Program-made: the position numbers and the translations under genes
Shown here: positions 107-38,467 of the stretch, piece after piece
How the letters are laid out: every line of letters begins with the position of its first letter
Position numbering within the stretch: position 1 is the stretch's first letter
Notes under the pieces: generated by a model
The model's input: the letters and a program-made list of their open reading frames with translations, nothing else
Told to the model about the DNA's origin: nothing
Database searches by the model: none
IMG/VR virus record: IMGVR_UViG_3300049460_000134
Location: 51,556 to 115,555 of that record
Strand: one strand, 5' to 3'
Origin: a virus
DNA: 64,000 nt

Positions 107-586
107 ATGGCAAGAAAAACCCTTGATGAAGCCGAAAAGGCAAGGCTTCAGCGTATTGCCGACCGCATTTTCGAGAAGGTGAAGGCACTCGACGGCATCT
201 ATTACGTCGAAGGCATGCATCAGCTTCCGGTTCTGCGGCACGACAGTGAATACCGCCAGGCGCCGATCGATAGCTCGATCGAGTTCCTGCTCTCCTCCGT
301 CCGCGTTGGCGGCCGCGGACAAATCATCTTCTGCTTCGAGCCGGCTGATAACCGTGAATTCAAGCATATTGAGGTCGAACAGCGGAAGATGGACGACGTC
401 TTCCCTCTTTTCGGTCCCGCCTATGCTGAAGCAATCGGCTCCGAGCAAGAGAACTTCGAGGCTCTGATCAACGAGACGTCCGAGGCGCTCGAGCTTGAGG
501 ACGAAGCCGCCGAGATCCGCAAGGCTCAAGAAGCTGAAGAGGCTCTCGAAAACAATCGCAAACTCCAAAACTACGGGAGATTCTAA
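107..586 (+). CDS. Hypothetical protein with C-terminal LQNYGRF tag
   Basis: ATG at 107 (the track start at 89 lies inside an operator); acidic coiled-coil C-terminus ending NYGRF. Confidence 0.8.
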   Translation: MARKTLDEAEKARLQRIADRIFEKVKALDGIYYVEGMHQLPVLRHDSEYRQAPIDSSIEFLLSSVRVGGRGQIIFCFEPADNREFKHIEVEQRKMDDVFPLFGPAYAEAIGSEQENFEALINETSEALELEDEAAEIRKAQEAEEALENNRKLQNYGRF

Positions 587-7924: not shown

Positions 7925-8020
7925 GCCACACGAAAAAGCCACGCGCATCCCAACTGCGCGTGAGCTATTCAGTAATTATTGACTGACAACAAACAAGAAC
8001 AGACACAAGGAGACAGAAGC

Positions 8021-10357
8021 ATGGAAGTTTCGCAGCTTGCGCAGCTCGACACACACGCCGTCATCGGCGGTGAAGATCCTGAAGCGTTCGGCATGGCTGA
8101 TACTCCAGAATTCTATCAGATGCTCTCAGCCAGCATCTATCGCGACAAGATCCGCGCAGTCGTGCGCGAGACGATCTGCAATGGCTGGGACGCGCATATC
8201 ATGGGCGGCTGCACCGACAAGGCAGTGCAAGTTACACTCACGGACGAGGAGCTTGTCATCAAGGACTTCGGTCCCGGCATTCCGCATGAGAAGATGCGGC
8301 CGATCTATTGCATCTACGGCGTTTCGACGAAGGTGAAGGATGAGAGCCAGACCGGCGGTTTCGGTCTCGGATCCAAGTCGCCATTCGCCGTCACCGATCA
8401 CTTCTCCGTCGTCTCGTGCTTTGCAGGCACACGCTCTGTCTATGCCATCTCTCGCGGTGGCAAAGCTACAAGCGGCAAGCCTGACATGCGCCGCATGGTC
8501 GCCGTGCCGACAACCGAAAGCGGCGTCACTGTCACGGTCCCGATCAAAAAGGAAGAGCGCGAGAGCTTTGCCAAGCACATTCGCGCCGTTGCAAAGCAGG
8601 GCGGCATGCTGGTGACGCTGAACGGCGAACTTCTGGAGCGCTTCGATTACGAGGAGGCGCGCAAGACTGAGTTCTGCGTCGTCGCGCCTCACTGGATGCA
8701 CGAAAGCCGCATCTATACGCTCTACGGCACCGTCCTCTATCCGGTGATGACGACCGACCCTGATATCTCCAAGCTGACACGCGATATCGAAGGCCTGATC
8801 GGCTACGGCTCGACGCTGGTTATCGTTGCCCCGCCGAATTCAGTCGAAGTCACGCCGTCGCGCGAGTCCCTCTCTTTTACGGATGGAACCACCGACACCA
8901 TCAAGCGGCTGCTCGACAAGGCATGCACGCGCATCAGCAAGGCAATTCCGGCAGCTACTAAGCTCGCTGTCGATGCACGCGTTGCAAAGAACGGCCGCCT
9001 AGCGCTCGCGAGCAAGATCCACGCGATCAGAGAGGTGCCTGAGAAGGTTCTCTCCAGTGCGCTCGCGATCGCCGAGCACGCCGTCCGCTCGAATCCTGAT
9101 AACCATATCCAGTATGATCGACAGCGGCGCCTATGCCTTCAGGCAGCGCAGCGACTGTTCAAAGATGATCGCCGCACCTTCCGCCGTGCGCTGAAGCGTG
9201 GTTACAACGCTGGCGAGGACAGCTTCAAGGCGTCGAGCAAGCCGCTCATCCGCATTGCCTCGAAGATGGGCATGCTGAAGGATGCGCACCTCTTCAACAT
9301 CTACGCCTATCGCTACCAGACGATCGGCTCCAAGACCAATCCGCTGAAGGAGCACGACACCGGGGTCGTTAGGCCTGTCCTTTGCGTGGCGCGCAATCTG
9401 CGCGATCTGCGACCGACGATGAGCGGTGCAAGCAGCGGTTTTCCGCCGGACAAGGATAGCTTCATCGCCGGCCTGGTCATGCGCCAGTGGACTGCGGAGC
9501 GCCTGAAGCAGCTTCGCGCGCTCGCCGAGCACTACAAGCTGAAGCTGGTCATCTTCGATTACGAAGCAGCGAAGAAGCCGAAGAAAGCACCGGTCAAGCG
9601 CGAAAAGATCGTCGACAAGTATTTCGCCCTTGGTGATTTCAGGGGAACGACTTGCGAAACGGCAAACCTCGAAAATCCGAAATACTTCCTGATGAGCTTT
9701 GCGCGCGAAGGCATGCGTTCGCCCTTTCAGGATGAAGGCCATCAATACCACCACCTTCTTGCGAAGCGCTATCCGGAGACGGCTGTCATTTCGTCCAAGA
9801 CAGACGCTGAGAAGCTGATGAAGCGCGGCGCAGTCAATCTGACCGGTGTCATTGCCAAGCGCATTGCGGAGCTCGCTGGGGTCCGTGAGGTCCAATACGC
9901 TTACGCGATCCGCGAAGGCCTGATGTGCAACGGCAATTATCACCACTACCCATCAGACCTGGCCATTTCGTTCGCCAAGCTCGACATGCGGATTGCAAAG
10001 CGCCTGTTCCCCGACAAGGCGACGCCTGGCGCTCTCGCTGAAGAAGGCTTGCTTCTGAACGACGTGATGAACTCGCTGCGGCTCGATTATCAGGACCGCA
10101 ACTGCGGCGGCAATGAAGCCAAGCTCAAGATCTGGACGTCTGCGAGAGAGACCTACAAGGCCATGACCACGTCATATGCCGACCAGAAATTCAGTTACTT
10201 GAGCGTCCTGGCAGGCATCAGAGTTACCGGCGGCATCAAACGCAAGATCGATGATCTCCACGACATCATCGTCTTTTTGCAGGACCGCGAGAGTAAGTCA
10301 AAATTGACTGAATCCCTTTTGAACCCAATTGCTAACGCCCAGAAGGAGGCAGCATGA
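8021..10357 (+). CDS. rIIA: rIIA-like protein (GHKL ATPase N-terminus)
   Basis: RETICNGWDA, DFGPGI and GGFGLGSKSPFA motifs; adjacent to rIIB. Confidence 0.88.
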   Translation: MEVSQLAQLDTHAVIGGEDPEAFGMADTPEFYQMLSASIYRDKIRAVVRETICNGWDAHIMGGCTDKAVQVTLTDEELVIKDFGPGIPHEKMRPIYCIYGVSTKVKDESQTGGFGLGSKSPFAVTDHFSVVSCFAGTRSVYAISRGGKATSGKPDMRRMVAVPTTESGVTVTVPIKKEERESFAKHIRAVAKQGGMLVTLNGELLERFDYEEARKTEFCVVAPHWMHESRIYTLYGTVLYPVMTTDPDISKLTRDIEGLIGYGSTLVIVAPPNSVEVTPSRESLSFTDGTTDTIKRLLDKACTRISKAIPAATKLAVDARVAKNGRLALASKIHAIREVPEKVLSSALAIAEHAVRSNPDNHIQYDRQRRLCLQAAQRLFKDDRRTFRRALKRGYNAGEDSFKASSKPLIRIASKMGMLKDAHLFNIYAYRYQTIGSKTNPLKEHDTGVVRPVLCVARNLRDLRPTMSGASSGFPPDKDSFIAGLVMRQWTAERLKQLRALAEHYKLKLVIFDYEAAKKPKKAPVKREKIVDKYFALGDFRGTTCETANLENPKYFLMSFAREGMRSPFQDEGHQYHHLLAKRYPETAVISSKTDAEKLMKRGAVNLTGVIAKRIAELAGVREVQYAYAIREGLMCNGNYHHYPSDLAISFAKLDMRIAKRLFPDKATPGALAEEGLLLNDVMNSLRLDYQDRNCGGNEAKLKIWTSARETYKAMTTSYADQKFSYLSVLAGIRVTGGIKRKIDDLHDIIVFLQDRESKSKLTESLLNPIANAQKEAA

Positions 10358-14459: not shown

Positions 14460-15029
14460 GTGGAACCAATTATTGCAGCCCTCGACACCGAAACCACCGG
14501 CCTAAGGCCGGGAGATCATAGGTTCGTCGAAATCTATATCAGCCTTTGGCGCGGCAGCACCAAGATCTACGAATATCACACGTTGATTGATCCGCAGCGC
14601 TCCATCCCGGCTGACGTCCAGGCCATTCACGGCATCACGCCGTCTGACGTCGCCGGCAAGCCGACCTGGCAGCAGGTAGCGAAGAACGTCCAGGCGGTGC
14701 TCGCCAAGGCTGACGCTCATATGGCGCACAATGCCGCGTTCGATATGGAATTCATCGAAGTCGAGCTGAAACGCCTGAAGCTCGACATGCCGAAGCGACC
14801 GGTCATCGACACTATGGACTATGTCTGGGCAACGCCGGACGGAAAGAAGCCTTCGCTCCTGGAGCTCTGCACGGCTTGCGGCATTGCTTACGACAAGAGC
14901 CAGGCTCACCGCGCCGACTACGACGTTGGCGTCATGGTGCAAGCCTACCACAAGGCGATCGAATTCGGCTTTGCACAGCCGTTCGTGAAGCCGGCAGCGG
15001 AAACTGAAGAAACCGCTCTTGCTGCCTGA
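14460..15029 (+). CDS. DEDDh 3'-5' exonuclease (DnaQ-like)
   Basis: LDTETTG, AHNAAFD and HRADYD motifs. Confidence 0.92.
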   Translation: MEPIIAALDTETTGLRPGDHRFVEIYISLWRGSTKIYEYHTLIDPQRSIPADVQAIHGITPSDVAGKPTWQQVAKNVQAVLAKADAHMAHNAAFDMEFIEVELKRLKLDMPKRPVIDTMDYVWATPDGKKPSLLELCTACGIAYDKSQAHRADYDVGVMVQAYHKAIEFGFAQPFVKPAAETEETALAA

Positions 15030-15122
15030 CATATCCACCCGAACCCCTGCGTGCGCTTCGCTATAACGTATTTGTAAACGAAAACAACGCGCTAGCGAAG
15101 CGCACAGCAAGGAGCTTTTGAA

Positions 15123-15938
15123 ATGAAGAACGCACAAATGGCAGGAAACGTAGTCAACGGCGTGTCGGCAGAAAGCATCGATGATCTCCTCGAAGATCTC
15201 GACCTGGGCATCGAGCCGGCGCGTGGCGAAGAAATTGAAACGATCGTCGCCTCGGAAGAAGTGATCGAGGACGTCGATACGATCGTCGAGGAAGTTGTTG
15301 CCGCTGACGTCTCCGGCGACGACGATCTGTCCATCGACGAACTCGAAATGGGCATCGAGCGCGCTCAGGGCTACCAGGAGCAGGACGGCGGTGAGCAGCT
15401 CGCCGGCAATGCGACTGAGACCGTAGCTTCGAAGAAGGCAAACGCACCGAAGGCAGACTCGACTGTCAAGACAGTGAAAGCGCCGCGTGCATCTACGCCG
15501 CGTCAGCCGCGCGACGTGTCTGCGATCGCCGCTGAAGTCTTCGTCCTCGAAGGCGACGCCTCGCAGATGTCGGCTGACGAACTCGAAAGCAACAAGAAGG
15601 CGGTGATCGACGCTGCGCCGACGCAGAAGAAGATCGCCGAGAAATACGAAAACCTCTTCATGTCGCTCTCGGTCGGCAAGCAGCCTTCGACCTACGTCGT
15701 CCAGGCGTTCAAGTTCCTGGACCAGAAGAAGACGCTGTCCTCGACGGATATCGTCGCGATGCTTAAGGGCTCCTACAAGCAGGGCACTGCTCAGAGCCAG
15801 GCCGGTCAGATCATGAAGCTCTTCGAGGCGACGAAGATCGCGACGCGGACCAAGAACTCGCTGGAGCTGAACGACAACTCGGTCATCGCCGGCAAGCTGC
15901 GCGACATTCTCAACAACGCGAACAAAGCCGCCGCGTAA
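15123..15938 (+). CDS. Acidic N-terminus plus probable winged-helix C-terminal domain; paralog of 36111 and 38916 products
   Basis: C-terminal GTAQSQAGQIMKLF...LELNDNS aligns with ATASTQASSNMRIL...YELTDT. Confidence 0.7.
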   Translation: MKNAQMAGNVVNGVSAESIDDLLEDLDLGIEPARGEEIETIVASEEVIEDVDTIVEEVVAADVSGDDDLSIDELEMGIERAQGYQEQDGGEQLAGNATETVASKKANAPKADSTVKTVKAPRASTPRQPRDVSAIAAEVFVLEGDASQMSADELESNKKAVIDAAPTQKKIAEKYENLFMSLSVGKQPSTYVVQAFKFLDQKKTLSSTDIVAMLKGSYKQGTAQSQAGQIMKLFEATKIATRTKNSLELNDNSVIAGKLRDILNNANKAAA

Positions 15939-16014
15939 GCGACGGCTCATTCACCGGAGCGGCGGCGCGTCCCAGGCGCGCTGCCACCATCAACCACCCC
16001 TGAAAGGAAAGATC

Positions 16015-19478: not shown

Positions 19479-19694
19479 ATGTTCGCCATTTTGAAAGGTA
19501 TCGCCGAGCGGCAGAAGAAGGACGACGACAGGCAAGCCGTCTTGCGCTTCCGTTCCGGCGCCGTATCGCATGTCGAGGAGTGGATCGAGGTCCGCACCAA
19601 TCTTGTCAAAGTCGTTGTCAACTACAGCCAGAAGTCCACGGAAGTCTCGTTCCTGCCGGAAGCCGTCGAATCCGTCGAATACAGGTGGCGATAA
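19479..19694 (+). CDS. Hypothetical protein
   Basis: AGGAG SD, ATG at 19479. Confidence 0.65.
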   Translation: MFAILKGIAERQKKDDDRQAVLRFRSGAVSHVEEWIEVRTNLVKVVVNYSQKSTEVSFLPEAVESVEYRWR

Positions 19695-19939
19695 TGGCTC
19701 TACCGCTCGCGAACGCCAACCTCCCTATCTTGCCCCTCGATCGTGAGAGTGATTGGTCCAAGGGCATCAACTTCCTCACCGAGCATCGCTATGGCCTGAG
19801 CGTCATGAGGCCAAACATCTACGGCAGCGCCGGCGCCGACAGCTTCGAGATCCGCCAGGCCAAGAAGACCGCCGACAAACTGAGCGAGGAAGAGCTCGCT
19901 GAGCGTCGCAAAGATCAGCCGAACTTCGCCAAGTTCTAA
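19694..19939 (+). CDS. Hypothetical protein with C-terminal QPNFAKF (tag variant)
   Basis: TAATG coupling; C-terminal motif. Confidence 0.65.
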   Translation: MALPLANANLPILPLDRESDWSKGINFLTEHRYGLSVMRPNIYGSAGADSFEIRQAKKTADKLSEEELAERRKDQPNFAKF

Positions 19940-20016
19940 TACGCACTATCCGCGCGCTTCCCTGCGTGCGCTGTGCGATAAGTAATTATTGACTGACAAA
20001 TCAAGGAGATAGTCGA

Positions 20017-20604
20017 ATGCACTATAGCAGTGTCGGCATGATCGCGATCCAACAGGCCAAACTGTTTGCGATCGCCGCCCACGCAGCCGTCGGCCAGAAG
20101 CGCAAATACGGCGGTGAGGACTACATCACGCATCCGGTGCGCGTCGCTGAAATGGTCAAGCAGCTCCGTGGCCACACCTGGGAAATGGTGGCGGTAGCAC
20201 TCCTGCATGACGTCGTCGAAGACACCGCGATCGACCATGAGCTGATTGCCGACCTGTTCGGCACCACAGTCGGCGGCATGGTTCGCTCGTTGACGAACAT
20301 CGACAAGGCGGCCGGCAACAGCAAGCACCGGCTCGAGCTCGATATCCAGCGCCTGAAGATGGCGACGCCCGAGACGAAGACCATCAAGGTCGCGGACATC
20401 TACGACAACCTCTACAACCTGGTCGAGCTCGACTTCCGCCACGCACGCTACTTCGTGCCGAAGGTCAAGCGGATCATGCTTGAGGCTCTGCACGACTGCA
20501 GCGACGCCTGCCTCTGGGGTCTAACGATGATCCGCGTCAACGACATGGAAGCTCAGATCGCCAAGATCGAGGCGGGGCAGCAGGAGGCGAAACTTGCCAG
20601 CTAA
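20017..20604 (+). CDS. Small alarmone hydrolase-like HD protein (SpoT/Mesh1 HD)
   Basis: AH..GQKRK...YITHP, ALLHDVVEDT and IKVADIYDN motifs. Confidence 0.85.
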   Translation: MHYSSVGMIAIQQAKLFAIAAHAAVGQKRKYGGEDYITHPVRVAEMVKQLRGHTWEMVAVALLHDVVEDTAIDHELIADLFGTTVGGMVRSLTNIDKAAGNSKHRLELDIQRLKMATPETKTIKVADIYDNLYNLVELDFRHARYFVPKVKRIMLEALHDCSDACLWGLTMIRVNDMEAQIAKIEAGQQEAKLAS

Positions 20605-20803
20605 CATCCTGAAGACCATGCCGGTGATCACTCGTTGGACCCAATGCACGCTTTGCGACCATGTTCAGATGGACGTGATCGTATGCGTCGAGCCGACCGC
20701 CGTCGCCGAAATGGAATGCGGTCATACCTATGCGGACGGTCGCGAGATCTCTGCCAACCGCGCCTTTGACGCCGACGTGCGCCAGATCATCGAGCACGCA
20801 TGA
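20594..20803 (+). CDS. Small Cys/His-containing protein
   Basis: GGAGG SD, TTG start; CTLC...CGH. Confidence 0.55.
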   Translation: MPANILKTMPVITRWTQCTLCDHVQMDVIVCVEPTAVAEMECGHTYADGREISANRAFDADVRQIIEHA

Positions 20804-21030
20804 AGAAGCAGCGGAACAAGATGCGCGCAAACCAGAAGAAAGCGCGCGAGAAACAGACACAGCGAGTCACCAGCGCGCGCCGTGAGCTTCCGAGGTCTCA
20901 GAGTGCGTCGCGCGACCGGATGCTCGCTATGAACGCTGCTATGAGCGGTCACTCATTGGCTGCAGGCCTTGGCGCCGTCGCTCTCGCCCAGGCTATGTTC
21001 TGGGGAAAAAGGAAGGCCGATGTTTCTTAA
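20800..21030 (+). CDS. Hypothetical basic protein
   Basis: ATGA overlap. Confidence 0.55.
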   Translation: MKKQRNKMRANQKKAREKQTQRVTSARRELPRSQSASRDRMLAMNAAMSGHSLAAGLGAVALAQAMFWGKRKADVS

Positions 21031-21337
21031 GGTCGAGAAACCAAGCTCCACGCTCTACGCCGCGCACGAAGCGGAGAAGGAACGGATCATTGCCGCCGCG
21101 ATCTTCTTCGGCGGCATTGTCTCGCTTCCACCGCCGGCCAGGCACCATACCATCATTCAGACGATGGATCGCGGCATGCACCTCGACGGCGCGGCTGTCT
21201 TGCCGCAGATGCAAGGCTTCATCACCAGCACAGGCCGCTACGTCAACCGCGTCGAGGCCTACTACCTCGCATATAGCGCCGGTCAGCTCATCAGCGAGAC
21301 CAAAGGACCGGAGCTCTACTCGGAGGATTTGTGGTGA
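21020..21337 (+). CDS. Conserved phage hypothetical protein
   Basis: PARHH, QGFITSTGRYVNR and LYSEDLW motifs. Confidence 0.75.
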   Translation: MFLKVEKPSSTLYAAHEAEKERIIAAAIFFGGIVSLPPPARHHTIIQTMDRGMHLDGAAVLPQMQGFITSTGRYVNRVEAYYLAYSAGQLISETKGPELYSEDLW

Positions 21338-21675
21338 TCCACACTGAAGTTCTGCGAAAGGGCGAGGCACGCTTCAACATGGTTGGTCAGAGGCTGCCGG
21401 ACAGCCTTCACGACACCGACCAGGAGATTTCCCCTGGTCTGGCCTATCGCCTCTATCGGTATTGCTACGTGCGCCTCACCGAGAATGGCTTCAATCTGGA
21501 GGGCTGGAAGGTCCACGTCTACACGATGGACGGCGATCTGCCACGCTCCGATCGGTATTACTGCGTCGAGTTCGTCCACCAGAAGGGCGGCATGATCGGC
21601 TTGCAAGGGATTCTAATCGGCAAGGGTGGCTGGCCTACCCTCGATCACGGCGTCAGCACAGGAGAAGGATATTGA
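21331..21675 (+). CDS. Hypothetical protein
   Basis: GGAGG SD. Confidence 0.65.
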   Translation: MVIHTEVLRKGEARFNMVGQRLPDSLHDTDQEISPGLAYRLYRYCYVRLTENGFNLEGWKVHVYTMDGDLPRSDRYYCVEFVHQKGGMIGLQGILIGKGGWPTLDHGVSTGEGY

Positions 21676-21956
21676 GCCTACCTGTTCTTCCGACCGGCTG
21701 GGAATGGATCGAGGGGATATCGACGAACGGCGACATCTACCTCGCCTTTAGAGGCAGGCCAGCGGTTGACTTGGAGGTAGGCATTTTCGTCTGCGGCCTT
21801 GGTATGAACCACTGGCGCGTCATCGAGCGCCCATCGCGCATCATTCTCGGCAAGAAACGCATGAAAGAGATCCGTAACGACATCCAGCTCGGCAAATACA
21901 CGATCGCCGACCTTGTGCCGGCGCCAGCAACGCAGAAGAATTGGGGAAGATTTTGA
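21672..21956 (+). CDS. Hypothetical protein with C-terminal KNWGRF tag
   Basis: TTG start at 21672 overlapping the upstream stop. Confidence 0.65.
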   Translation: MSLPVLPTGWEWIEGISTNGDIYLAFRGRPAVDLEVGIFVCGLGMNHWRVIERPSRIILGKKRMKEIRNDIQLGKYTIADLVPAPATQKNWGRF

Positions 21957-22300
21957 GCGACAACGAACACCTTTCCGAGCGCACCGACCGAATCCGCCAG
22001 CTCAACGACCAGCTCCGGCGCACAGGCAAGGGCGGTCAGATCGTCGCGACAGGCGCGCTCACTCAGGCCGATCCAGAGCTGATCTACCAGGCTTCCGTCC
22101 AGGTGCGCGACTATGCGGCTTTCGACACTGGCGATGATCCTTATGGCGAGCATGACTTCGGCTCGTTCGTGATCGGCGGTCAGAAATTCCATTGGAAGAT
22201 CGACTATTACGATCGGAGCATGGAGTTCGGCGCTGACGATCCGGCTGATTCCGCCAATTGCGTTCGCGTGCTCTCTATCTTCTACGCCGAGGACTACTGA
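21953..22300 (+). CDS. DUF3768-like protein
   Basis: IRQLNDQLR, DDPYGEHDFG and WKIDYYD motifs. Confidence 0.8.
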   Translation: MSDNEHLSERTDRIRQLNDQLRRTGKGGQIVATGALTQADPELIYQASVQVRDYAAFDTGDDPYGEHDFGSFVIGGQKFHWKIDYYDRSMEFGADDPADSANCVRVLSIFYAEDY

Positions 22301-22629
22301 TGAATCGGCACGACTCCCTTATCGCCTCGAGCCAGTGCGACAACATCATCGCCCTCCTCTTCTTCGAGGATACGGACGAGGTGATTAAGGTCGTCGAGCC
22401 GAGCTACCGGATCGACCTGATTGATCCGATTTCGAATGTGACGCACCGGTCGAAGCGCTTCAACGCCAAGGACGACACCGACGCCAAGCGAAAGTTCCGG
22501 ATAGTCTGCCAGCAGGCCGTCACGACAACCTTTCAGGAGGCAGTCGCTGAAATCGCGCCGGAGCCTGAGCCGCAAATCCAGGAACCAAGCGCTCCTGCCC
22601 CTAAGCCTGCCCAATGGGGACGCTTCTGA
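22300..22629 (+). CDS. Hypothetical protein with C-terminal AQWGRF tag
   Basis: TGATG coupling; Pro-rich linker before the tag. Confidence 0.7.
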   Translation: MNRHDSLIASSQCDNIIALLFFEDTDEVIKVVEPSYRIDLIDPISNVTHRSKRFNAKDDTDAKRKFRIVCQQAVTTTFQEAVAEIAPEPEPQIQEPSAPAPKPAQWGRF

Positions 22630-22955
22630 TGGCGATCCGCGTGGTCCAAGAGGTGACTGATAGAGGCTATCGCTTCACCTGGGAGGAAGAGACCAAGGAG
22701 ATCGAAACTGCCTCTCACGGTCGCGTGATCGTCGTTAAGGGCTGGCAAGCAGTTGTCGAGGCGCAGAAAGGCGACATTGTCAGCACGACTGATATCTTTC
22801 CCCTACCCGACAAGTTCACGGCGACCCAGGCTGAGTTTGTGAAGCTGACCAACACCTATCCTGCCTACAGATATGAGGCAGGGCAATTTCCGACGGTCAT
22901 CATCAAGAAGCCACCCAAGGACTACGAAAAACTCCCCAATTACGGCCGCTTTTAG
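22629..22955 (+). CDS. Hypothetical protein with C-terminal YEKLPNYGRF tag
   Basis: TGATG coupling. Confidence 0.7.
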   Translation: MAIRVVQEVTDRGYRFTWEEETKEIETASHGRVIVVKGWQAVVEAQKGDIVSTTDIFPLPDKFTATQAEFVKLTNTYPAYRYEAGQFPTVIIKKPPKDYEKLPNYGRF

Positions 22956-23017
22956 CCACGCGTAACCCAACGGGCGCTATGCGAAAACAATCATGTCAAC
23001 AGCAACAAAGAGGTTAC

Positions 23018-23239
23018 ATGAGCAATCGCATTAAGCTTCCGAAGCGCGTCAAGCAGGCACTCGAACAGGTCGGGAGCTACAGGCTCGAGCAGGGTGGGAA
23101 GCATGTTCGGATCTACGTTAACGAAGTGCTGGCAGGAATCGTGCCACATGGAGTGCGAGGCGACGGCGAGATCCCTGGACGCGCGATGCTGAACGTGGTC
23201 TCCCAGATTCGAAGAGCAGGAAGGGCGGTGACATGCTGA
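23018..23239 (+). CDS. HicA-like small protein
   Basis: LEQGGKHVRIY pattern of the HicA dsRBD fold. Confidence 0.45.
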   Translation: MSNRIKLPKRVKQALEQVGSYRLEQGGKHVRIYVNEVLAGIVPHGVRGDGEIPGRAMLNVVSQIRRAGRAVTC

Positions 23240-23496
23240 CAAGAATTGGCGTTTGGGTCTGGCGACTGATGAAGCTCGGCGTGGCTCTTGGCGCGATAGC
23301 TGCCGTAAGAGAGGTAGGCAACAATGCCGTCTATCACTTTTCGGGCCCCGAGAGTTCACCAAGCAATTGGGTGCTCGTGCGGCAGCTCGAAAGCGGCATT
23401 CAGGTGCTCGATACCTCAACCGGTCGGCTCTGCTTTATCCTGAATGACCCTAAACTGTTCGCGCCTGACTGCTCTCGGACGGCGGTGACGAAGTGA
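23233..23496 (+). CDS. Hypothetical membrane-anchored protein
   Basis: N-terminal hydrophobic helix; LDTSTGRLC. Confidence 0.55.
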   Translation: MLTRIGVWVWRLMKLGVALGAIAAVREVGNNAVYHFSGPESSPSNWVLVRQLESGIQVLDTSTGRLCFILNDPKLFAPDCSRTAVTK

Positions 23497-23750
23497 CCGA
23501 GACAGAAGACTTCAACGAGAAGGAGACGAAGCGGAAAGTGCTCGTGCGCAACGAGCAGCGGAAGCTTCGTGCCAGCTTTGGGAACACCATAGGCGGTGGC
23601 GTCGTTTCTGTCGGAACCGCCGGTCCTGTTGTAGCCTGGTTTGCAGGCACTATATCTCAGCTACCGGTCCTAGGAATCATGATTTGGTTCTGCATCGGCG
23701 TTGTGATACACAGTTTGGCAATGGACGTCTTAGAAGGGATGGAAATCTGA
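23493..23750 (+). CDS. Small two-TM membrane protein
   Basis: NEQRKLRA followed by two hydrophobic helices. Confidence 0.6.
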   Translation: MTETEDFNEKETKRKVLVRNEQRKLRASFGNTIGGGVVSVGTAGPVVAWFAGTISQLPVLGIMIWFCIGVVIHSLAMDVLEGMEI

Positions 23751-23893
23751 TGGACTTCAACCAGGCCTATACTACGACCGGCGTTGTCGTTCTCGCTGCG
23801 CTTTGCGGCGTGCTCTTCTATCGGAAGCTGGCGCGCGCGAACTGGAACGTGATGGAAGCGCTCAACAGCTTCATCCATATGACGCGCATCTGA
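23750..23893 (+). CDS. Small membrane protein
   Basis: TGATG coupling. Confidence 0.5.
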   Translation: MDFNQAYTTTGVVVLAALCGVLFYRKLARANWNVMEALNSFIHMTRI

Positions 23894-23900
23894 TTTTGCC

Positions 23901-23926
23901 AAGGGCGCTTGACGGCGCCCTTTTTC
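23901..23926 (+). terminator. Intrinsic terminator
   Basis: AAGGGCGC-TTGACG-GCGCCCTTTTT. Confidence 0.7.
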
Positions 23927-24069
23927 GGCTCTAGTTGTGTCAGTAAATCCTGACTGACTCCTGACATATCCACCCGAACTCCTGTCTCAGACATGCGATA
24001 ACAAATCATCGAAAGAGACGACGCATGTCCGCATGCGTCAGTAAACACTGACTGACAAGAGGATTTGGC

Positions 24070-24579
24070 ATGACTGAACACATCATAAACGAGCAGCGCA
24101 TCGACGTTCCGGATGACATGACGGTCGTCCTCGAGACAGGCTTCGCCGGAGCATTCGATCACATTCGCTACCGCGGCGTCGAGATCTGCACCTACGAGCA
24201 GGATGACGACCAGGCTTACACCAGCGGATTTGCTGTCTGCATCAATGGCGACCCCGAGCATGTGAATGAGCTCGCCGAAGCGCGCACCATGATCGACGCC
24301 TACCACGCGGAAATGCTCCTGGCGTTCACTTGCAAAGACTGCGCGGTCAACACCTCGGCGATCGGCGAATATTACATGGTGACTGACGACCTCTGGGCGA
24401 AAGCAGGCATGGCGCCTGACGGCGGCATGCTGTGCATCGGCTGCCTGGAGACGCGGATCGGCCGGCAGCTCATTGCAAAGGACTTTCCGGACTATCCGGT
24501 CAACGCGATCGGCTTCTCTTCCAAATCGGAACGCCTCATGTCGCGCATCACATGCGCCGAAGTCCTCGAGGCTGCGTGA
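24070..24579 (+). CDS. Hypothetical protein with CxxC...CxxC Zn domain
   Basis: CKDC...YMV..DLW...LCIGCLETRIGR. Confidence 0.75.
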   Translation: MTEHIINEQRIDVPDDMTVVLETGFAGAFDHIRYRGVEICTYEQDDDQAYTSGFAVCINGDPEHVNELAEARTMIDAYHAEMLLAFTCKDCAVNTSAIGEYYMVTDDLWAKAGMAPDGGMLCIGCLETRIGRQLIAKDFPDYPVNAIGFSSKSERLMSRITCAEVLEAA

Positions 24580-24806
24580 TGGTGCGTTGGTTCGGCTCGA
24601 GACCAACCAATCCAGCCTCCGAGGCTGATAAGATCGACGTTCTGCTGCTGGCTCGGCGGGACGAAGGCGTGAAGATCGCCGCAAACAATCATGGCGTGGT
24701 CGAGCTGCTGTTTCAGCTCGGCATGCTCAAGCACAAAGGTAAACAGACGGTTCGTGCCACAAAGGCAGGCCGCGCATACTTGGAGAGATTCGAATGGGCG
24801 CGCTAG
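24576..24806 (+). CDS. Hypothetical protein (winged-helix-like C-terminus)
   Basis: Overlap with upstream stop; ATKAGRAYL. Confidence 0.5.
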   Translation: MMVRWFGSRPTNPASEADKIDVLLLARRDEGVKIAANNHGVVELLFQLGMLKHKGKQTVRATKAGRAYLERFEWAR

Positions 24807-25372
24807 GTCGCATCAGCAAGAAAATGCATAAGCACACCGCCAAGATCGACTCGCTACGGATGGGCTCGACTCCGAAAGATCCGCCACGGCGCAAGGAGCT
24901 GTTCATGCCGGCTGGATACCAGCCTGGCGAGCTGAACATCGTGCCGACGCCAGGCATGAGAAGCAACCGCATGTCGATGTCTGTTGGCGATCATGCGCGT
25001 CATGGGAGCCAGATCGTGCTCGTTGACATGGAGATCGCCAGGCATGACCTAGACGAGCGCATGGCCGGCTACGACGCCGAGATCATCTACGTCGATGAGC
25101 TGGAACAGGTCGTGCCACCACACGGACAGAAATATCCGAAACATGCCCTGGCGCGCAAAGGCTCGATCTTCCAAGGCATCTGCAATCGCACGGCATGCGA
25201 CAACGTCGACGCGCGCTTCTACAACAAGGGCACGTTTGGCTACTATTGCACGTCATGCGGCTGGGCAATCAACGGGCGCAAGACCGGCGACGAGCGGCTC
25301 TGCATCGAGGTCGATCACAACCTCACCCATGACGAAATGAACCAGCTCTACAGAGGACACACGTTCGCATGA
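24794..25372 (+). CDS. Hypothetical protein with C-terminal Cys cluster
   Basis: CNRTAC...YYCTSC. Confidence 0.65.
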   Translation: MGALGRISKKMHKHTAKIDSLRMGSTPKDPPRRKELFMPAGYQPGELNIVPTPGMRSNRMSMSVGDHARHGSQIVLVDMEIARHDLDERMAGYDAEIIYVDELEQVVPPHGQKYPKHALARKGSIFQGICNRTACDNVDARFYNKGTFGYYCTSCGWAINGRKTGDERLCIEVDHNLTHDEMNQLYRGHTFA

Positions 25373-25569
25373 GAGAGCACGCCGACGGCACACGCATTCG
25401 CCTGATTGAAATGACGGACCCTTATCCGGCCCCGGTCGGCACAGAAGGCACGATCACCGGCTACGAGCCGAGCATCGGCTATCTGAACGAGGCCTACCAC
25501 GTCAATTGGGACAACGGCAGCAGACTCAAGGTGCTGGTCGATGTCGATCACTGGGAGGTCATCGAATGA
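25369..25569 (+). CDS. DUF4314-like protein
   Basis: GTRIRLIEMTDPY..PVGTEG...VNWDNGS. Confidence 0.75.
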   Translation: MREHADGTRIRLIEMTDPYPAPVGTEGTITGYEPSIGYLNEAYHVNWDNGSRLKVLVDVDHWEVIE

Positions 25570-25952
25570 CGGTTAGCGATCAGCTCATCAAGGATCTCAC
25601 GTTCTCGCTGGCATGCGGCCATGACGAAGGCTACATCAGAAATCAGGCCTGGAGCCTTCACTGGCGACTTAAGGTGCGTCGCATCGAGGACAAGGCGCGC
25701 GATAACGTCTTCTCGATCGCTACCATCGCTCTCCGCGAGAACCTGTGCGGCCGCGGACACTTCACGGCGCTGATCCGGCACCTGGTCGAGCATCCAACGA
25801 TCGCCGGCCGGTCCCTGGACTGGCTTTACATCGAGCAGTGCCGCTTCAGGCTCGGTGAGCATTTGCGCCGCGAGCTCGGCTTCAAAATCGACGACGGCAT
25901 GGTCATAGACGCCTGGCGCCGCACGACCTCGCAGATGGAGCTCGGCCTATGA
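25566..25952 (+). CDS. GNAT-like small protein
   Basis: IATIALRENLCGRGHF resembles GNAT motif A. Confidence 0.5.
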   Translation: MTVSDQLIKDLTFSLACGHDEGYIRNQAWSLHWRLKVRRIEDKARDNVFSIATIALRENLCGRGHFTALIRHLVEHPTIAGRSLDWLYIEQCRFRLGEHLRRELGFKIDDGMVIDAWRRTTSQMELGL

Positions 25953-26302
25953 GCGCAATAGCGGCGCCACCACGCGATCCAGATGGCCTCTGGCATGAGG
26001 TCGCAACCAAGTTCAACGGCAAGCATTGGTATGTCCTGCTCGAAGGCAGAGGCCGCAATCGAAACCTGGCTTCGATCAACCGCCACATCGAAGGCGAGTG
26101 GGAAATGTTCGAACACGGCGCCTATGCCGATATCGAAGTGGTTTGGCTCAGCCTGAAGGACGTCAACGCGCCGGTCGTGGTTGCGGCGAAGCCGGAGATC
26201 GAATGGGAAGAGGCTGGCGATTTGCTGGATGAGGCTGAGATCATTCCAGCCGAGCCGCCGGTCGATCCATACGCCGCCCTGCCGAACTACGGGAGATTCT
26301 GA
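25949..26302 (+). CDS. Hypothetical protein with C-terminal YAALPNYGRF tag
   Basis: ATGA coupling. Confidence 0.75.
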   Translation: MSAIAAPPRDPDGLWHEVATKFNGKHWYVLLEGRGRNRNLASINRHIEGEWEMFEHGAYADIEVVWLSLKDVNAPVVVAAKPEIEWEEAGDLLDEAEIIPAEPPVDPYAALPNYGRF

Positions 26303-26520
26303 TGGGTGAGGACGACTATGATCTGCTCGATCGCGGCTGCACCTGTCACACAAGTCATCCACCCTGCAGCTTTTGCACGGAGCTCGGCGAGGATGAGATC
26401 GAGGTTTATCATGACGGCGGCGCCGAGGCTGTGCGCGATCGGCGTATCGCTCTGGAGAATGGCGAGACCTGGCCGCCACCGTCGCCATACGCCGACAATC
26501 CGGATTATGGGAGGTTCTGA
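26302..26520 (+). CDS. Cys/His-rich small protein with C-terminal YADNPDYGRF tag
   Basis: CTCH..PPCSFC. Confidence 0.75.
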   Translation: MGEDDYDLLDRGCTCHTSHPPCSFCTELGEDEIEVYHDGGAEAVRDRRIALENGETWPPPSPYADNPDYGRF

Positions 26521-26828
26521 TGATTGAATCCGGTGTTGGTCCAGAGTCCTGGCGCAAGATCTATCCGTCGTCTGAGTGGGAGACCTACAGGCGGCATCAG
26601 TTTCCAGCCGGCGACCGGCTCGTCATGGTCCGGCACAAGGAGAGCATGCGCGCCGCGGTGCTGTCGTTCTTTCACAAGGAAGGCGATCTGCATTGGATTG
26701 TCCATTGGGACGGTCACTCGATGGGCACGCTGACCTGCTTTGAACAGATGGTCGCGCGTGGTGTCACCGCCATGGACTCTGCGCCTGCCGCCGAATACGC
26801 GGAACTGCCTAATTTCGGCAGGTTCTAG
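26520..26828 (+). CDS. Hypothetical protein with C-terminal YAELPNFGRF tag
   Basis: TGATG coupling. Confidence 0.75.
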   Translation: MIESGVGPESWRKIYPSSEWETYRRHQFPAGDRLVMVRHKESMRAAVLSFFHKEGDLHWIVHWDGHSMGTLTCFEQMVARGVTAMDSAPAAEYAELPNFGRF

Positions 26829-29108: not shown

Positions 29109-29744
29109 ATGCCAGCGCCGAAAAATGACATCAGACAGTTCCGCTTTAAGGTGCGGATCACCGCTCTCGGGCGAGAAGAATACACCGGCAAGATCGCCAA
29201 GGTCTCCTTTAAGGACGGGCTTTCCGAGAATTTCGTCAGCTATCAAGAGGCGATGTCCGTCTGTGCGACTATCACCGCCGAGATCTCTCCGGATTACGGC
29301 GACGGCGATCTGAATTTCAGCCCCGCCAGCCCCGCCCTTCTTGCGGCTCAATTTGCTACCGAGCGCGAAGACGATGCGCCCGATACGGTAGCAACGAAGG
29401 TTGTCCTGCCCAATGTCGAACCGCTCGCCATCAAGACCATCCAGGGTTCTGAATACTTGCTGAGCGACAGCGACGCCGGCTATCTGCTCGACTTCGAGGA
29501 GGGCTGTGAAATCACTGTGCCGAGCGGTTTGAAGGAAGGCTTCTACTGCTCGCTGCGACAGGGCGGCGACGATCAGATCGAGGTCGCCGGTGATGATCCC
29601 GAGATCGGGCGTGCCGTGATCGTCGAGGAAATCGACGACCTGTTCTTCTCCGAAAAGCGCCTGGCGATCCTGCACCTGGCACGATTCCCTGATGGCAGCT
29701 TCCAGCTTACCGGCCGCACCGGCGAAGAGCAGGAGTCGGCGTAA
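29109..29744 (+). CDS. Putative virion fibre adaptor
   Basis: N-terminus resembles that of the 56098 product; C-terminal YLL..SDAG...ITVPSGL..GF...Q fibre-type domain. Confidence 0.55.
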   Translation: MPAPKNDIRQFRFKVRITALGREEYTGKIAKVSFKDGLSENFVSYQEAMSVCATITAEISPDYGDGDLNFSPASPALLAAQFATEREDDAPDTVATKVVLPNVEPLAIKTIQGSEYLLSDSDAGYLLDFEEGCEITVPSGLKEGFYCSLRQGGDDQIEVAGDDPEIGRAVIVEEIDDLFFSEKRLAILHLARFPDGSFQLTGRTGEEQESA

Positions 29745-31918
29745 TGCGTCACCCCTTCCTCTCCCGCTTCGATCATAGCGGCCGCTCCGGATCTTCCGGT
29801 GGCGTGCCGCGCTTCACCCTTGACTACGACTCGATCGCCGAAGATTTCGAGATCGGCTGGTCTGTTACCAGCCTCCTGATCAACGGCGATACCAACGATC
29901 CTAACTACACCAGCTTCGTCATCGTCGATGACCCGGATGGGAGGTTCTCGATCAGCGGAAGCACTCTGTTCCTTGCTGCTCTGGTGGATTACGAGACCAA
30001 GTCGAGCCACGACGTGTCGATCATGGCTATTCACGCTACCGACCCGACCAAGAACATCGTCAAGACCTTCACCATCCAGGTCGAGAACCTTGCAGAAGGC
30101 CTGCTTGGCCCGACCGTGGCGAGCTTCATCTCGGGTGCGGCGCCTGGCACGGTCGTTTGCGACATCACCGGTCTAGACGTCAGCGTGAACGAGCGGCTTT
30201 TGGCGATCCTGTATCCCGCGAACAACAAGGTTGTCATCAGTCCGGACGGCATGCAGCTCCTTGTGGGCACAAACCTTCAGTCGGCAGGACAGACGGAAAC
30301 CCTCAGCATTGTTACCAACCGTGGCCGGAATCTCAACATCGATGTCACCGCCCAGTCGGCAGAGCAGCCGATCTACCGCGTGGCAACGCGTCAGTATGGC
30401 ACCGGCTACAACGCCGAAAGCGTTGCGCTGACTGGCGATGGCTCGACCAAGACCTATACGACCTCGCTCGTCAACGAGAGTGGTCGGCAGATGGATACGG
30501 TCGCGATCGCATTCCAGGGCTGGGGTCTCATCACGACTGGCACGCAGCCTGTCGGGAACGACAACACCATGTCTGGCACGATCACCTACAATGGCGTGAC
30601 GCAGAACTTTCAGGACGTTGTGGTGCCCAATGGTGACGACACGCAGAATGCGGATCTTGCTCTCTCGACGCCGATCCCGGCAGGCGCAAGCTTCAGCATC
30701 AACCTTAGCTCTCCGGTCGCAAGCGGTGCCAAGTATCCGCCGCGGCTTGGCTTTGCTGGCGTGCTGACCAAGGCTCTCGAGTCCGAGCTGGAGCCTGCCT
30801 TCTACGGCATCGGTGACTCGATCGCGACCAACAATGGCGCAGCACTCATGAACGCCTCGATCGGCAAGTGCCCTGTCTACCAGGCGTCGATCGTCGGAAC
30901 GACCGCACAAGCCTATGGCGAGAATACCGCCAACTTCCTGCGCCAGAAGAACCTGGCAAAGCGGCTTGGTGCGGACTTCTTCTGCGACTTCGGCACCAAC
31001 GACCTGATCGCCAGCAAGACGCCGGCGCAGATCCTCGGCTGGCTGAAGAACATGCGCGATCTCGCCAAGGCAGACGGTATCGGCTGGATCCAGACGACGA
31101 TGCTGCCGCGCGTCACCAAGAAGGCAGCGGTCGCCGTGACCAGCCTGACGTCCGATGGCATCAGCAACAGGATGAAGATCAAGGTTGCGGACGCGTCGAT
31201 CTTCACGATCGGTCAGGCCTACTCGGTGGCAGGCGCAACACCGGCTGGCTACAACGGCTCGACGATCTGTGACGGACTCGACCTTGCACAGAACGAGGCA
31301 ACCTTCATCTGCGCCAATGGTCTCGCGAGCCCCGCGACCGGCACGATCACCATCACGGCTCGTAATCCGACCAACACGGCCTACTGGCAGCAGCCGGCGA
31401 ACTCCAACTACAATCCAGGCGCGGCAAGCCCTCGTGGCGTGTTCAACACGGCAGTTCGAAATGGACCATCCAGCGGTGACTTCGACGCCTTTGTAGATTG
31501 GGCGGATGCCGTAGAGCCCTTCCGTGACAGCGGCCGCTTTGCCGTGGCTGGCGAAAAGGGCAAACTGCCGTTGCCTGTCATCGCGACCGTCATCGCCGGC
31601 GGCACCAGGACGACCACGCGTTTCAATACCGACTACGGCGTTGGGTCGAGCACGACGGCAAACGGTCTGGTGCAGTTCATCACCGGCGCCAATGCCGGCC
31701 AGCTCAAGGGCGCATCGAACAACACCGCCGGCGACATCACGTTGCTGACGGCTCTGACCGCGGCTCCGGCTGTCGGCGACAAGATGTGGGTTTGGCCTGG
31801 CGTCTGCTACCAGTCCGACGACGGTATCCACGACCGCGTCTCGACAGGCGGCATGGGTGGGCAGGTGCTCCTCGATGATGAGACCCAAGAGTTCCTCATC
31901 GAAGCGATTGCCGCCTAG
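29744..31918 (+). CDS. Cadherin-like domain plus SGNH/GDSL esterase, probable virion fibre or spike
   Basis: LVDYET cadherin motif; GDS, GTND and DGIH SGNH blocks; Thr/Gly-rich beta content. Confidence 0.75.
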   Translation: MRHPFLSRFDHSGRSGSSGGVPRFTLDYDSIAEDFEIGWSVTSLLINGDTNDPNYTSFVIVDDPDGRFSISGSTLFLAALVDYETKSSHDVSIMAIHATDPTKNIVKTFTIQVENLAEGLLGPTVASFISGAAPGTVVCDITGLDVSVNERLLAILYPANNKVVISPDGMQLLVGTNLQSAGQTETLSIVTNRGRNLNIDVTAQSAEQPIYRVATRQYGTGYNAESVALTGDGSTKTYTTSLVNESGRQMDTVAIAFQGWGLITTGTQPVGNDNTMSGTITYNGVTQNFQDVVVPNGDDTQNADLALSTPIPAGASFSINLSSPVASGAKYPPRLGFAGVLTKALESELEPAFYGIGDSIATNNGAALMNASIGKCPVYQASIVGTTAQAYGENTANFLRQKNLAKRLGADFFCDFGTNDLIASKTPAQILGWLKNMRDLAKADGIGWIQTTMLPRVTKKAAVAVTSLTSDGISNRMKIKVADASIFTIGQAYSVAGATPAGYNGSTICDGLDLAQNEATFICANGLASPATGTITITARNPTNTAYWQQPANSNYNPGAASPRGVFNTAVRNGPSSGDFDAFVDWADAVEPFRDSGRFAVAGEKGKLPLPVIATVIAGGTRTTTRFNTDYGVGSSTTANGLVQFITGANAGQLKGASNNTAGDITLLTALTAAPAVGDKMWVWPGVCYQSDDGIHDRVSTGGMGGQVLLDDETQEFLIEAIAA

Positions 31919-38127: not shown

Positions 38128-38298
38128 ATGCAAACGATCATTCCAGCGCCGACCGTCAGATACCACATAAAAGAAATGACGCCGCGCCAGTCGAACTTCG
38201 CAAGCCAAGCCCTGTCGCTTGCCAAGGAGACTGCCGCCTTCATTGCCTTTATCGTCTTCGTCTGTGCTGTCATCGCCGTGTGCGTGATAATCCACTAA
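38128..38298 (+). CDS. Small protein with C-terminal TM helix
   Basis: ATG at 38128 after a promoter. Confidence 0.55.
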   Translation: MQTIIPAPTVRYHIKEMTPRQSNFASQALSLAKETAAFIAFIVFVCAVIAVCVIIH

Positions 38299-38304
38299 GT
38301 CGAG

Positions 38305-38346
38305 AGCCAGGTCCGGACACCGCCATGTCACCGGACCTGGCTTTTT
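38305..38346 (+). terminator. Intrinsic terminator
   Basis: AGCCAGGTCCGG...CCGGACCTGGCTTTTT. Confidence 0.7.
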
Positions 38347-38467
38347 CATTGCCTGAAACCATGGCATGCCACGGTTGCCAAAATCAGGAACCGAGGCTAT
38401 TCGTGCCAAGGGGATCCAGTCCGGCGAGTCCCGCTGGCGATGCCTGTCAATATATGAGCGCTCGCTA

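What the first reader, a model, noticed from the sequence alone, without database searches (positions are those of the whole stretch)
19694..26828. Eight unrelated small proteins share a C-terminal (Y)xxLPN[YFW]GRF-stop tag
Seen: C-termini are LQNYGRF (107-586), DQPNFAKF (19694-19939), QKNWGRF (21672-21956), PAQWGRF (22300-22629), YEKLPNYGRF (22629-22955), YAALPNYGRF (25949-26302), YADNPDYGRF (26302-26520) and YAELPNFGRF (26520-26828). The protein bodies show no visible similarity, and the tag usually follows a Pro-rich or acidic linker. Codons vary (GGG AGA TTC, GGC CGC TTT, GGA CGC TTC, GGC AGG TTC), and two copies end operons with no coupled downstream gene, so selection appears to act on the peptide. 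Inference: a modular docking signal delivers diverse cargo to one hub, analogous to the SSB C-terminal tail. Candidate roles are virion loading or ejection, a phage AAA+ chaperone, or a host complex. I know of no description of this tag.
Basis: partly seen in the sequence, partly recalled or inferred. Interest (0 to 1): 0.9.

Follow-up and report, generated by a model that had tools for sequence, protein, structure and literature searches.

The report
Shared C-terminal tail on phage proteins
Ten unrelated proteins of this 115-kb Rhizobium-type phage end in the same ten-residue peptide, which also ends hundreds of related phage proteins and a clade of bacterial DNA recombinases. It behaves like a portable address label, but its reader is still unidentified.

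Summary
All eight window ORFs end in [YFW]-[GA]-[RK]-F-stop, and two more lie upstream in the same 115,555-bp phage genome. Shuffled genomes give 0.2. The motif is never internal.

The full tag is Y-x3-P-x-[FYW]-G-x-[FW]-COOH. It occurs 6-10 times per genome in all six RHEph10-like Rhizobium phages examined. Orthologues keep it at about 30% body identity, and lineage-specific orphans carry it too.

New here:
- The window 107-586 protein belongs to a family of 308 clusters. 135 of the 151 members read end in the tag, and most of the rest carry it with one extra or changed residue.
- 62 of the 68 closest homologues of a tagged alphaproteobacterial serine recombinase carry the tag. Shorter homologues lack the whole tail.
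- Salmonella phage SSU5 has a possible variant (WATW) in the same gene slot.
- Arg codons are SD-like (AGR) mainly where a downstream gene is coupled. Selection is on the peptide.

My best reading is a docking tail for one shared partner. A protease or adaptor degron is the main rival. The partner was not found: one complex prediction (host clamp plus FtsA) gave no verdict. No paper searched holds the motif.

The scan met this tag before on other DNA (e1-5352279).

The parts
107..586 (+). 159-aa protein: N-terminal helix, SH3/Tudor-like five-strand barrel, long C-terminal helix, then tail ..KLQNYGRF. It is the most widely conserved carrier of the tag.
   Evidence: The family has 308 clusters. 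135 of the 151 members read end [FWY]-G-x-[FW], and most of the other 16 carry the tail with one extra or changed residue. AF2 pLDDT is 96. There is no Pfam or PHROG family (88, 91) and no clear fold match (98, 99, 103).
19694..19939 (+). Small orphan protein with a variant tail ..DQPNFAKF. The start is uncertain (a GTG at 19580 is possible).
   Evidence: No homologue in five related phages. No coupled downstream gene.
21672..21956 (+). Small orphan protein, tail ..TQKNWGRF after a Pro/Ala linker. The start is uncertain (a TTG at 21462 is possible).
22300..22629 (+). 109-aa orphan protein, Pro-rich linker, tail ..PAQWGRF. Its stop overlaps the next start (TGATG).
22629..22955 (+). 108-aa orphan protein, tail YEKLPNYGRF, codons GGC CGC TTT TAG, no closely coupled downstream gene.
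25949..26302 (+). 117-aa orphan protein, acidic/Pro linker, tail YAALPNYGRF. It is coupled to the next gene (GGG AGA TTC TGATG).
26302..26520 (+). 72-aa Cys-rich protein, tail YADNPDYGRF. Orthologues in phage RHph_N1_10 and an IMG/VR relative keep the tail.
   Evidence: It was used as the partner.
26520..26828 (+). 102-aa orphan protein, tail YAELPNFGRF, codons GGC AGG TTC TAG, with a 60-nt gap downstream.

Best explanation
The peptide Y-x3-P-x-[FYW]-G-x-[FW]-COOH is a portable short linear motif. It sits at the free C-terminus, behind a flexible Pro-rich, acidic or helical spacer, and it tethers otherwise unrelated proteins to one common partner.

Shown: the tag exists, it is selected as a peptide, it must be terminal, and it moves between protein families.

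Inferred: it works by binding. I further infer that this partner belongs to DNA replication, repair or recombination.

The reason for the last inference is where the conserved carriers lie:
- a WGR-domain protein and a small protein between primase and ligase;
- a protein coupled to the Pol III alpha gene in one relative;
- the barrel protein between the SbcCD-like genes and the ribonucleotide reductase genes;
- island serine recombinases.

Whether the partner is encoded by the host or by the phage superfamily is open.
For: 1. The same position-specific profile appears in three independent sets: 135 family representatives, 62 recombinases, and 48 tagged ORFs of six phages. The profile is Y at -10, N/H at -7, P at -6, F/W/Y at -4, G at -3, a variable residue at -2, and F/W at -1.
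2. The motif is strictly terminal. A few recombinases add one Gly or Ser.
3. Orthologues keep the tail at 30-40% body identity, and 7 of the 10 carriers here have no homologue in five relatives.
4. Recombinase homologues of 223 aa lack the whole ~25-residue extension, so the tail is an add-on module.
5. Peptide-level selection. My tally: among Arg-bearing tags, 14 of 18 coupled genes use AGR, against 3 of 14 uncoupled genes, which use CGN.
6. The penultimate residue shifts in concert within lineages. It is R in the OWN/RHEph10 group, A/G/T in X66/B1VFA, and S on three adjacent ORFs of metagenome contig L194.
7. Synteny. The order primase, tagged protein, (tagged small protein), Cys4 protein, ligase recurs in this genome, in L194 and in SSU5. 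In SSU5 the slot protein ends GWATW.
8. The tail lies beyond a 38-residue helix in a high-confidence model of the 107-586 protein. That it is exposed and points away from the barrel is my reading of the helix order; I could not inspect the coordinates.
Against: No partner was found and no binding was tested.

A terminal, exposed, conserved peptide on unrelated proteins is also what a degron looks like.

The tag is absent from host core proteins. In the strict form I could scan, it is absent from other phage families. Neither fact tells a host reader from a phage reader.

The 'DNA-transaction partner' step rests on gene neighbourhood only. Most carriers in this window are orphans of unknown function.
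Confidence: 0.45

Rival explanations
1. Degron or adaptor-binding tag. The tail hands its carriers to a host AAA+ protease (ClpXP through SspB, or Lon). Early or toxic phage-plasmid proteins and island recombinases would then be kept at low levels.
For: The tail is terminal, exposed and rich in aromatics, and it sits on unrelated proteins. The core N-P-N-[YF]-G resembles the N-D-N-Y-A of the host tmRNA tag ANDNYAEARLAA. The same genomes also show a 10-15-fold excess of -AA endings, which resemble the tmRNA tag end. From general knowledge, recombinases and transposases are classic protease substrates (MuA/ClpX, Xis/Lon).
Against: Ten conserved positions, including Gly, Pro and a distal Tyr, are more than known pore degrons need. 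The Cereibacter tmRNA tag is ANDNRAPVALAA, with no aromatic residue, yet its recombinases carry the tail. The family persists in a relative of 44% G+C, presumably with a different host. Stable housekeeping-type carriers, such as the barrel protein found in 308 clusters, are odd degron clients.
Confidence: 0.25
2. Non-canonical binding motif for the host beta sliding clamp. The phage has its own Pol III alpha but no clamp, so accessory proteins would ride the host clamp.
For: No DnaN or SSB gene was found in the phage by Pfam. Clamp motifs are often C-terminal and end in Phe, and N-F-G-x-F loosely parallels Q-L-G-L-F. From general knowledge, transposases are known clamp clients.
Against: Host DinB ends in a canonical QLALEL, and the phage Pol III alpha carries QLELLP at residue 967. 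The canonical code is therefore in use. Tag position -2, which would correspond to the key Leu, is freely variable. Trp is common at -4 and -1.
Confidence: 0.08
3. Virion-loading signal. The tail would dock cargo inside the procapsid, as encapsulin cargo peptides do, so that the proteins are injected with the DNA.
For: C-terminal cargo peptides binding HK97-fold shells are known from encapsulins (general knowledge). A WGR end-binding protein and small putative counter-defence proteins would be sensible cargo.
Against: All tagged genes lie in the replication and early/accessory regions. None lies in or next to the head module at window 50.5-60 kb. Chromosomal island recombinases carry the tail in genomes where no resident relative of the phage was seen.
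Confidence: 0.07
4. Mimic of the FtsZ C-terminal peptide, which would dock carriers on FtsA or other FtsZ-tail readers.
For: Rhizobium FtsZ ends ..LEIPAFLRRQSN. A-E-L-P-N-F-G-R-F shares E-[IL]-P-x-F-x-R with it.
Against: The hydrophobic positions that matter for FtsZ-tail binding (general knowledge) are N/H and Gly in most tags. There is no biological reason for DNA-metabolism proteins to sit at the divisome.
Confidence: 0.04
5. By-product of translational coupling. Gly-Arg codons GGGAGR would encode the Shine-Dalgarno site of the next gene, or the nascent tail would act on termination.
For: About half of the 47 phage tags are stop/start-coupled, and most of those use GGG/GGA AGR.
Against: Uncoupled tags use GGC CGC or GGG CGG and keep the peptide. 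Positions -10 to -4 are not explained. Sixty-two recombinases and 135 family representatives keep the peptide in other contexts. All three stop codons follow it.
Confidence: 0.03

Closest known systems
C-terminal tail of ribosomal stalk proteins P0/P1/P2 (..SDDDMGFGLFD) of eukaryotes and archaea
   Same: Several different proteins end in one identical tail on a flexible, charged spacer. The core is aromatic-Gly-x-aromatic at the very end. From general knowledge, the tail recruits many clients (translation GTPases, ribosome-inactivating toxins). A profile of the 107-586 family aligns its ..YEDNPLFGRF end to yeast P2 ..DDDMGFGLF (E 0.056, a tail-driven match).
   Different: There is no homology of the bodies. 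The stalk tail follows an acidic run and belongs to the ribosome. Bacteria use the L7/L12 globular domain instead. The tag here has N-P and a distal Tyr, and it sits on phage and island proteins.
Bacterial SSB C-terminal tip (..DDDIPF) and the T7 gp2.5/gp4 acidic tails ending in Phe
   Same: A terminal Phe with a free carboxylate at the end of a disordered tail. One tail serves as a hub-client code for DNA-transaction proteins. In T7 two different proteins share it.
   Different: Those tails are acidic and sit on one or two proteins. This tag is neutral to basic, has a Gly-spaced aromatic pair, and sits on 6-10 proteins per genome.
Clamp-binding tails (QL[SD]LF, QLxLxL; T4/RB69 gp45-binding C-termini; PIP box)
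   Same: Short, often C-terminal aromatic or hydrophobic peptides shared by unrelated DNA enzymes, including transposases.
   Different: The consensus is not met. The canonical motif is present on the host DinB and on the phage polymerase itself.
tmRNA (ssrA) tag with its SspB- and ClpX-binding parts
   Same: A portable C-terminal peptide. The local resemblance is N-x-N-[YF]-[AG].
   Different: The ssrA tag ends in LAA and is added co-translationally. This tail is gene-encoded and ends in aromatic-G-x-aromatic.

Membership tests
Beta-clamp-binding motif | Consensus QL[SD]LF or QLxLxL, with a conserved Gln and hydrophobic residues at positions 4 and 5 | tested here: not met
   Tag profile: no Gln, and position -2 is free (R, M, A, S, L, I). 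Host DinB has QLALEL. Phage Pol III alpha has QLELLP.
Beta-clamp-binding motif | Binds the hydrophobic cleft of DnaN | tested here: inconclusive
   One complex prediction with Rhizobium DnaN gave no verdict. No experiment was possible.
SSB-Ct-type tail | An acidic run followed by I-P-F-COOH on an OB-fold SSB | tested here: not met
   Tails lack the acidic run next to the tip. No SSB domain was found in the phage.
ssrA-like degron | Ends in L-A-A-COOH, with an SspB-binding N-D-N-[YF]-A part upstream | tested here: not met
   The tag ends [FW]-G-x-[FW]. Only N-x-N-[YF]-[GA] resembles the host tag ANDNYAEARLAA.
Ribosomal stalk P-protein tail | Carried by ribosomal stalk proteins, and ending in an acidic run plus MGFGLFD | tested here: not met
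   The carriers are phage and island proteins. Only the F-G-x-F end aligns.
FtsZ C-terminal peptide | D/E-I-P-x-F-L-R/K with hydrophobic positions I and L | tested here: inconclusive
   There is a partial match (E-[IL]-P-x-F-x-R) in some tags of this genome, but most tags have N/H and G at the hydrophobic positions. The FtsA complex prediction gave no verdict.
Encapsulin-type cargo-loading peptide | Cargo genes adjacent to the shell gene, with a Gly/Ser/Leu-rich C-terminal peptide | tested here: not met
   Tagged genes lie outside the head module, and the consensus differs.

The most novel reading that the evidence does not exclude
The tail and its still-unknown reader form an undescribed hub-and-client system. 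It would be native to a large superfamily of ~100-120-kb phage-plasmids, from RHEph10-like to SSU5/pHCM2-like. Through it, a phage-encoded core protein would gather replication, repair and takeover proteins.
Probability: 0.15. Interest if true: 0.85.

Novelty: new variant of a known kind. Interest (0 to 1): 0.6.

Why it matters
Shared C-terminal tails are how SSB, sliding clamps and the ribosomal stalk organise many clients. A new code of this sort would have three uses.

- It marks functionally linked 'hypothetical' proteins at sight. It is present 6-10 times per genome across a widespread phage-plasmid superfamily, and on a clade of island recombinases.
- It gives a handle for pulling out their common partner.
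- It may link phage infection to island mobility.

The possible WATW variant in SSU5-like elements of Salmonella, Klebsiella and E. coli would make it testable in model hosts.

Tried and rejected
**Complex prediction.** Rhizobium DnaN (alignment A4) plus FtsA (A5), with the 72-aa tagged protein as partner, scored 0.01. That is no verdict, and it counts neither for nor against binding. Only one such job was allowed. SspB, CobS/CobT (MoxR AAA+ plus vWA; also present in SSU5), the Cys4 protein, the XRE regulator, the RecA-like protein and Pol III alpha could not be tried.

**Literature.** No paper holds NFGRF, NYGRF or PNFGRF. Nothing on RHEph10 mentions the tail.

**Fold searches.**
- The barrel protein gave no Foldseek PDB match at E <= 0.001. 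The best VIA Z was 5.9 (trigger factor arm). CarD/RecD2 SH3-like barrels scored Z about 4.5.
- BFVD gave one uncharacterised phage protein.
- The Cys4 protein model (pLDDT 84) gave a best Z of 3.1.

**Family libraries.** Pfam and PHROGs found no family for any tagged protein except WGR.

**Neighbourhood of the recombinases.** There is no constant neighbour, but there are variable defence-type genes next to core genes ppx-rlmE-guaB. An XRE regulator homologous to the phage one recurs in the three islands. XRE regulators are too common for this to carry weight.

**Other searches that found nothing.**
- No recombinase homologue in the six phage genomes, nor in IMG/VR with single-sequence patterns.
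- Megablast of the region against phages found no match.
- A PDB sequence search with a 22-residue tail found nothing.

- The L194 record is not held.
- In the metagenome pattern scan, only 3 of 19 stretches held real tagged ORFs.

Genome G045 is flagged unpublished.
Full report
**What is in the sequence.** The window is the right-hand 64 kb of a complete 115,555-bp virus record with terminal repeats. It encodes ribonucleotide reductase, thymidylate synthase, rIIA/rIIB, a helicase, terminase and portal. Its portal is 73% identical to that of Rhizobium phage RHEph10, and 52% identical to SSU5-like phage-plasmids of enterobacteria.

Two further carriers lie upstream of the window, at genome 23927-24487 (a WGR-domain protein) and 24541-24762. 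All ten are on the + strand.

The motif [YFW]G[RK]F occurs 13 times in the six-frame translation, and 9 of these stand directly before a stop. P-x-[FYW]-G-x-F is never internal in + strand ORFs of 100 aa or more. Codon-block shuffles give 0.2 such endings per genome.

**The tag in relatives.** I assembled RHEph10, RHph_Y2_11, RHph_N1_10, RHph_X66, B1VFA and SSU5. With the pattern [YFW][GA]x-F-stop the counts are 10 (this genome), 7, 6, 8, 7 and 9, and 0 in SSU5. All are on the coding strand.

Orthologues keep the tail at 30-40% body identity. This holds for the WGR protein in all six phages and for the 107-586 protein in all six. Seven of the ten carriers here have no homologue in the other five genomes.

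The penultimate residue is mostly Arg in this genome and the RHEph10 group. It is mostly Ala, Gly or Thr in X66 and B1VFA. It is Ser on three adjacent ORFs of a divergent metagenomic relative.

**DNA or peptide?** About half of the 47 phage tags are stop/start-coupled to the next gene. Among tags with Arg, my tally gives 14 of 18 coupled genes using AGA/AGG. That makes GGGAGR, a Shine-Dalgarno-like string 5-6 nt before the next ATG. Only 3 of 14 uncoupled genes do so, and those use CGC/CGG. The tally is not corrected for shared ancestry.

So codon choice is bent to serve the neighbour, while the peptide is kept either way. Positions -10 to -4, the recombinases and the large family below cannot be explained by coupling at all.

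**The tag outside this clade.** A pattern scan of one genome per prokaryotic species gave ten stretches. The real ORFs among them are of two kinds:
- proteins of a 118-kb Phyllobacterium contig that resembles this phage;
- small serine recombinases (Resolvase plus HTH) of Sinorhizobium, Rhizobium and Cereibacter.

A protein search with one recombinase listed 120 homologues. Of the 68 closest (41-100% identity; the named ones come from Rhizobium, Sinorhizobium, Neorhizobium, Mesorhizobium, Ancylobacter and Pleomorphomonas), 62 end Y-x3-P-x-[FY]-G-x-F by my regex. A few more carry one extra residue. The next homologues, about 223 aa long, stop right after the HTH and lack the whole extension.

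In the three genomes examined, the recombinase sits at the edge of a variable island next to core genes. The island holds type I restriction, helicase/DprA-like, WYL and NYN genes. Apart from these recombinases and the phage-like contig, the host genomes hold no convincing tagged protein. The DNA pattern is no more frequent than its reversed control.

**A large tagged family.** A profile of the 107-586 protein, searched against 1.84 billion representatives, found 308 clusters. Of the 151 read, 135 end [FWY]-G-x-[FW]. Most of the other 16 carry the tail with one extra or one changed residue.

The position-specific profile is the same in this family, in the recombinases and in the mixed phage set. 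It reads Y(-10), N/H(-7), P(-6), aromatic(-4), G(-3), free(-2), F/W(-1).

The AF2 model is very confident (pLDDT 96). It shows a helix, a five-strand SH3/Tudor-like barrel, two short helices, a 38-residue helix, and then the tail. No Pfam or PHROG family matches, and no convincing fold neighbour was found.

IMG/VR relatives of this family again lie on ~115-kb genomes syntenic with this phage. One fragment has 44% G+C, which implies a quite different host.

**Synteny and SSU5.** The order primase, tagged WGR protein, tagged small protein, Cys4 protein, ATP-dependent ligase in this genome recurs in contig L194. There it reads three tagged ORFs, a 191-aa ORF, then ligase.

In SSU5 the slot between primase and ligase holds two proteins:
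- SSU5_042, which ends GWATW;
- SSU5_043, which aligns to the Cys4 family (hhalign 51%, E 1.6e-4).

A second SSU5 protein ends TWATW. Two ORFs sharing W-A-T-W-COOH is unlikely by chance. I read this as a possible diverged form of the same tail, but I did not test its conservation.

**What the tail is for.** The facts fit a short linear motif that needs a free carboxylate and is read by one pocket. That is the logic of the SSB tip, clamp-binding tails, the T7 gp2.5/gp4 tails and the ribosomal stalk tail. The stalk tail turned up as the only tail-level match in the PDB: yeast P2 ..DDDMGFGLF, E 0.056. It is an analogy of form, not homology.

I commit to docking on a common partner (0.45). Because the conserved carriers sit in replication, repair and recombination contexts, I think the partner most likely belongs to that machinery.

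The main rival is a degron or adaptor tag (0.25). Three things favour it:
- the resemblance to the host tmRNA tag ANDNYAEARLAA;
- a striking excess of -AA endings in the same genomes;
- the known proteolytic control of recombinases (general knowledge).

It is weakened by the Cereibacter tmRNA tag, which lacks the aromatic residue, and by the length and precision of the motif.

The clamp reading is weakened because canonical clamp motifs are in use on host DinB and on the phage polymerase. The virion-cargo reading is weakened by gene position.

Host or phage reader remains open. The restriction of the tag to one phage superfamily across hosts of different G+C favours a phage core protein. The conserved chromosomal recombinases favour a host protein.

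The single complex prediction allowed gave no verdict and is not evidence either way. It used host DnaN plus FtsA against the 72-aa carrier.

The Cys4 protein next to the tagged pair folds confidently into an unmatched fold. It carries a different shared tail of its own. It is a positional candidate only. CobS/CobT (MoxR AAA+ plus vWA) are conserved through to SSU5 and remain untested.

**Prior art.** No paper in the library holds the motif. An earlier agent of this scan reported nearly the same tag (YxxNPL[YF]GRF) on another Rhizobium-type phage, together with the recombinase clade, and also found no partner. I reproduced the recombinase clade independently.

This report adds:
- the 308-cluster family;
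- the codon/Shine-Dalgarno overlay;
- the lineage-wise drift of position -2;
- the conserved primase-ligase module;
- the SSU5 variant;
- the stalk-tail analogy.

Noticed in passing
window 7979-10357 (..KEAA), 29744-31918 (..AIAA), 41856-42500(-) (..EEAA), 44387-45985(-) (..RKAA), 47005-47676 (..DRAA) and others: Many proteins end in Ala-Ala. The count is 12-20 of about 110 ORFs of 100 aa or more in each of the six Rhizobium phages, against about 1.2 expected from Ala content. SSU5 has 4. This is a second, unexplained C-terminal bias that resembles the end of the tmRNA tag.
   Followed up: partly
genome 24762-25328 and 47661-48008 (both upstream of the window): Two unrelated proteins share another tail, G-[DN]-I-A-A-A-I-T-A. 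In the Cys4 family it is conserved as TGDMAAAINAA. This is probably the 'second shared motif' noted earlier in the scan (e1-5352281).
   Followed up: partly
window 1253-2215 and 3884-4156: The RNR small subunit ends ..SADDEF and the adjacent glutaredoxin-like protein ends ..LEDDDF. Both have acidic-Phe tails, so both might dock on the RNR large subunit.
   Followed up: no
genome 24762-25328; L194:1211-1786; SSU5 39117-39593: A conserved 160-200-aa protein with four invariant Cys sits between the tagged gene(s) and the ligase. The source database labels it PF26983. The AF2 model has pLDDT above 90 for residues 1-135, and no PDB fold neighbour scores above Z 3.1.
   Followed up: partly
L106:13772-14212(-), L104:9266-9658, L102:1906-2304; genome 29933-30367: The three recombinase islands each hold an XRE-type HTH regulator. 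It is 26-42% identical to the regulator that lies between repC and cobT in the phages. This hints that the islands draw on the same gene pool.
   Followed up: partly
SSU5 38241-39035 and 66436-67182: Two SSU5 proteins end GWATW and TWATW. The first lies in the primase-ligase slot that the tagged WGR protein occupies here.
   Followed up: partly
window 14502-15950 (-): This 482-aa minus-strand ORF has no PHROG match and overlaps + strand ORFs. It is probably a spurious open frame of a G+C-rich genome.
   Followed up: no
L048:3149-3481: In an IMG/VR fragment of a relative, a 110-aa tagged ORF (..YDDNPNYGRF) overlaps the stop of the Pol III alpha gene. The gene in that position here (genome 40151-40687) is untagged.
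   Followed up: no
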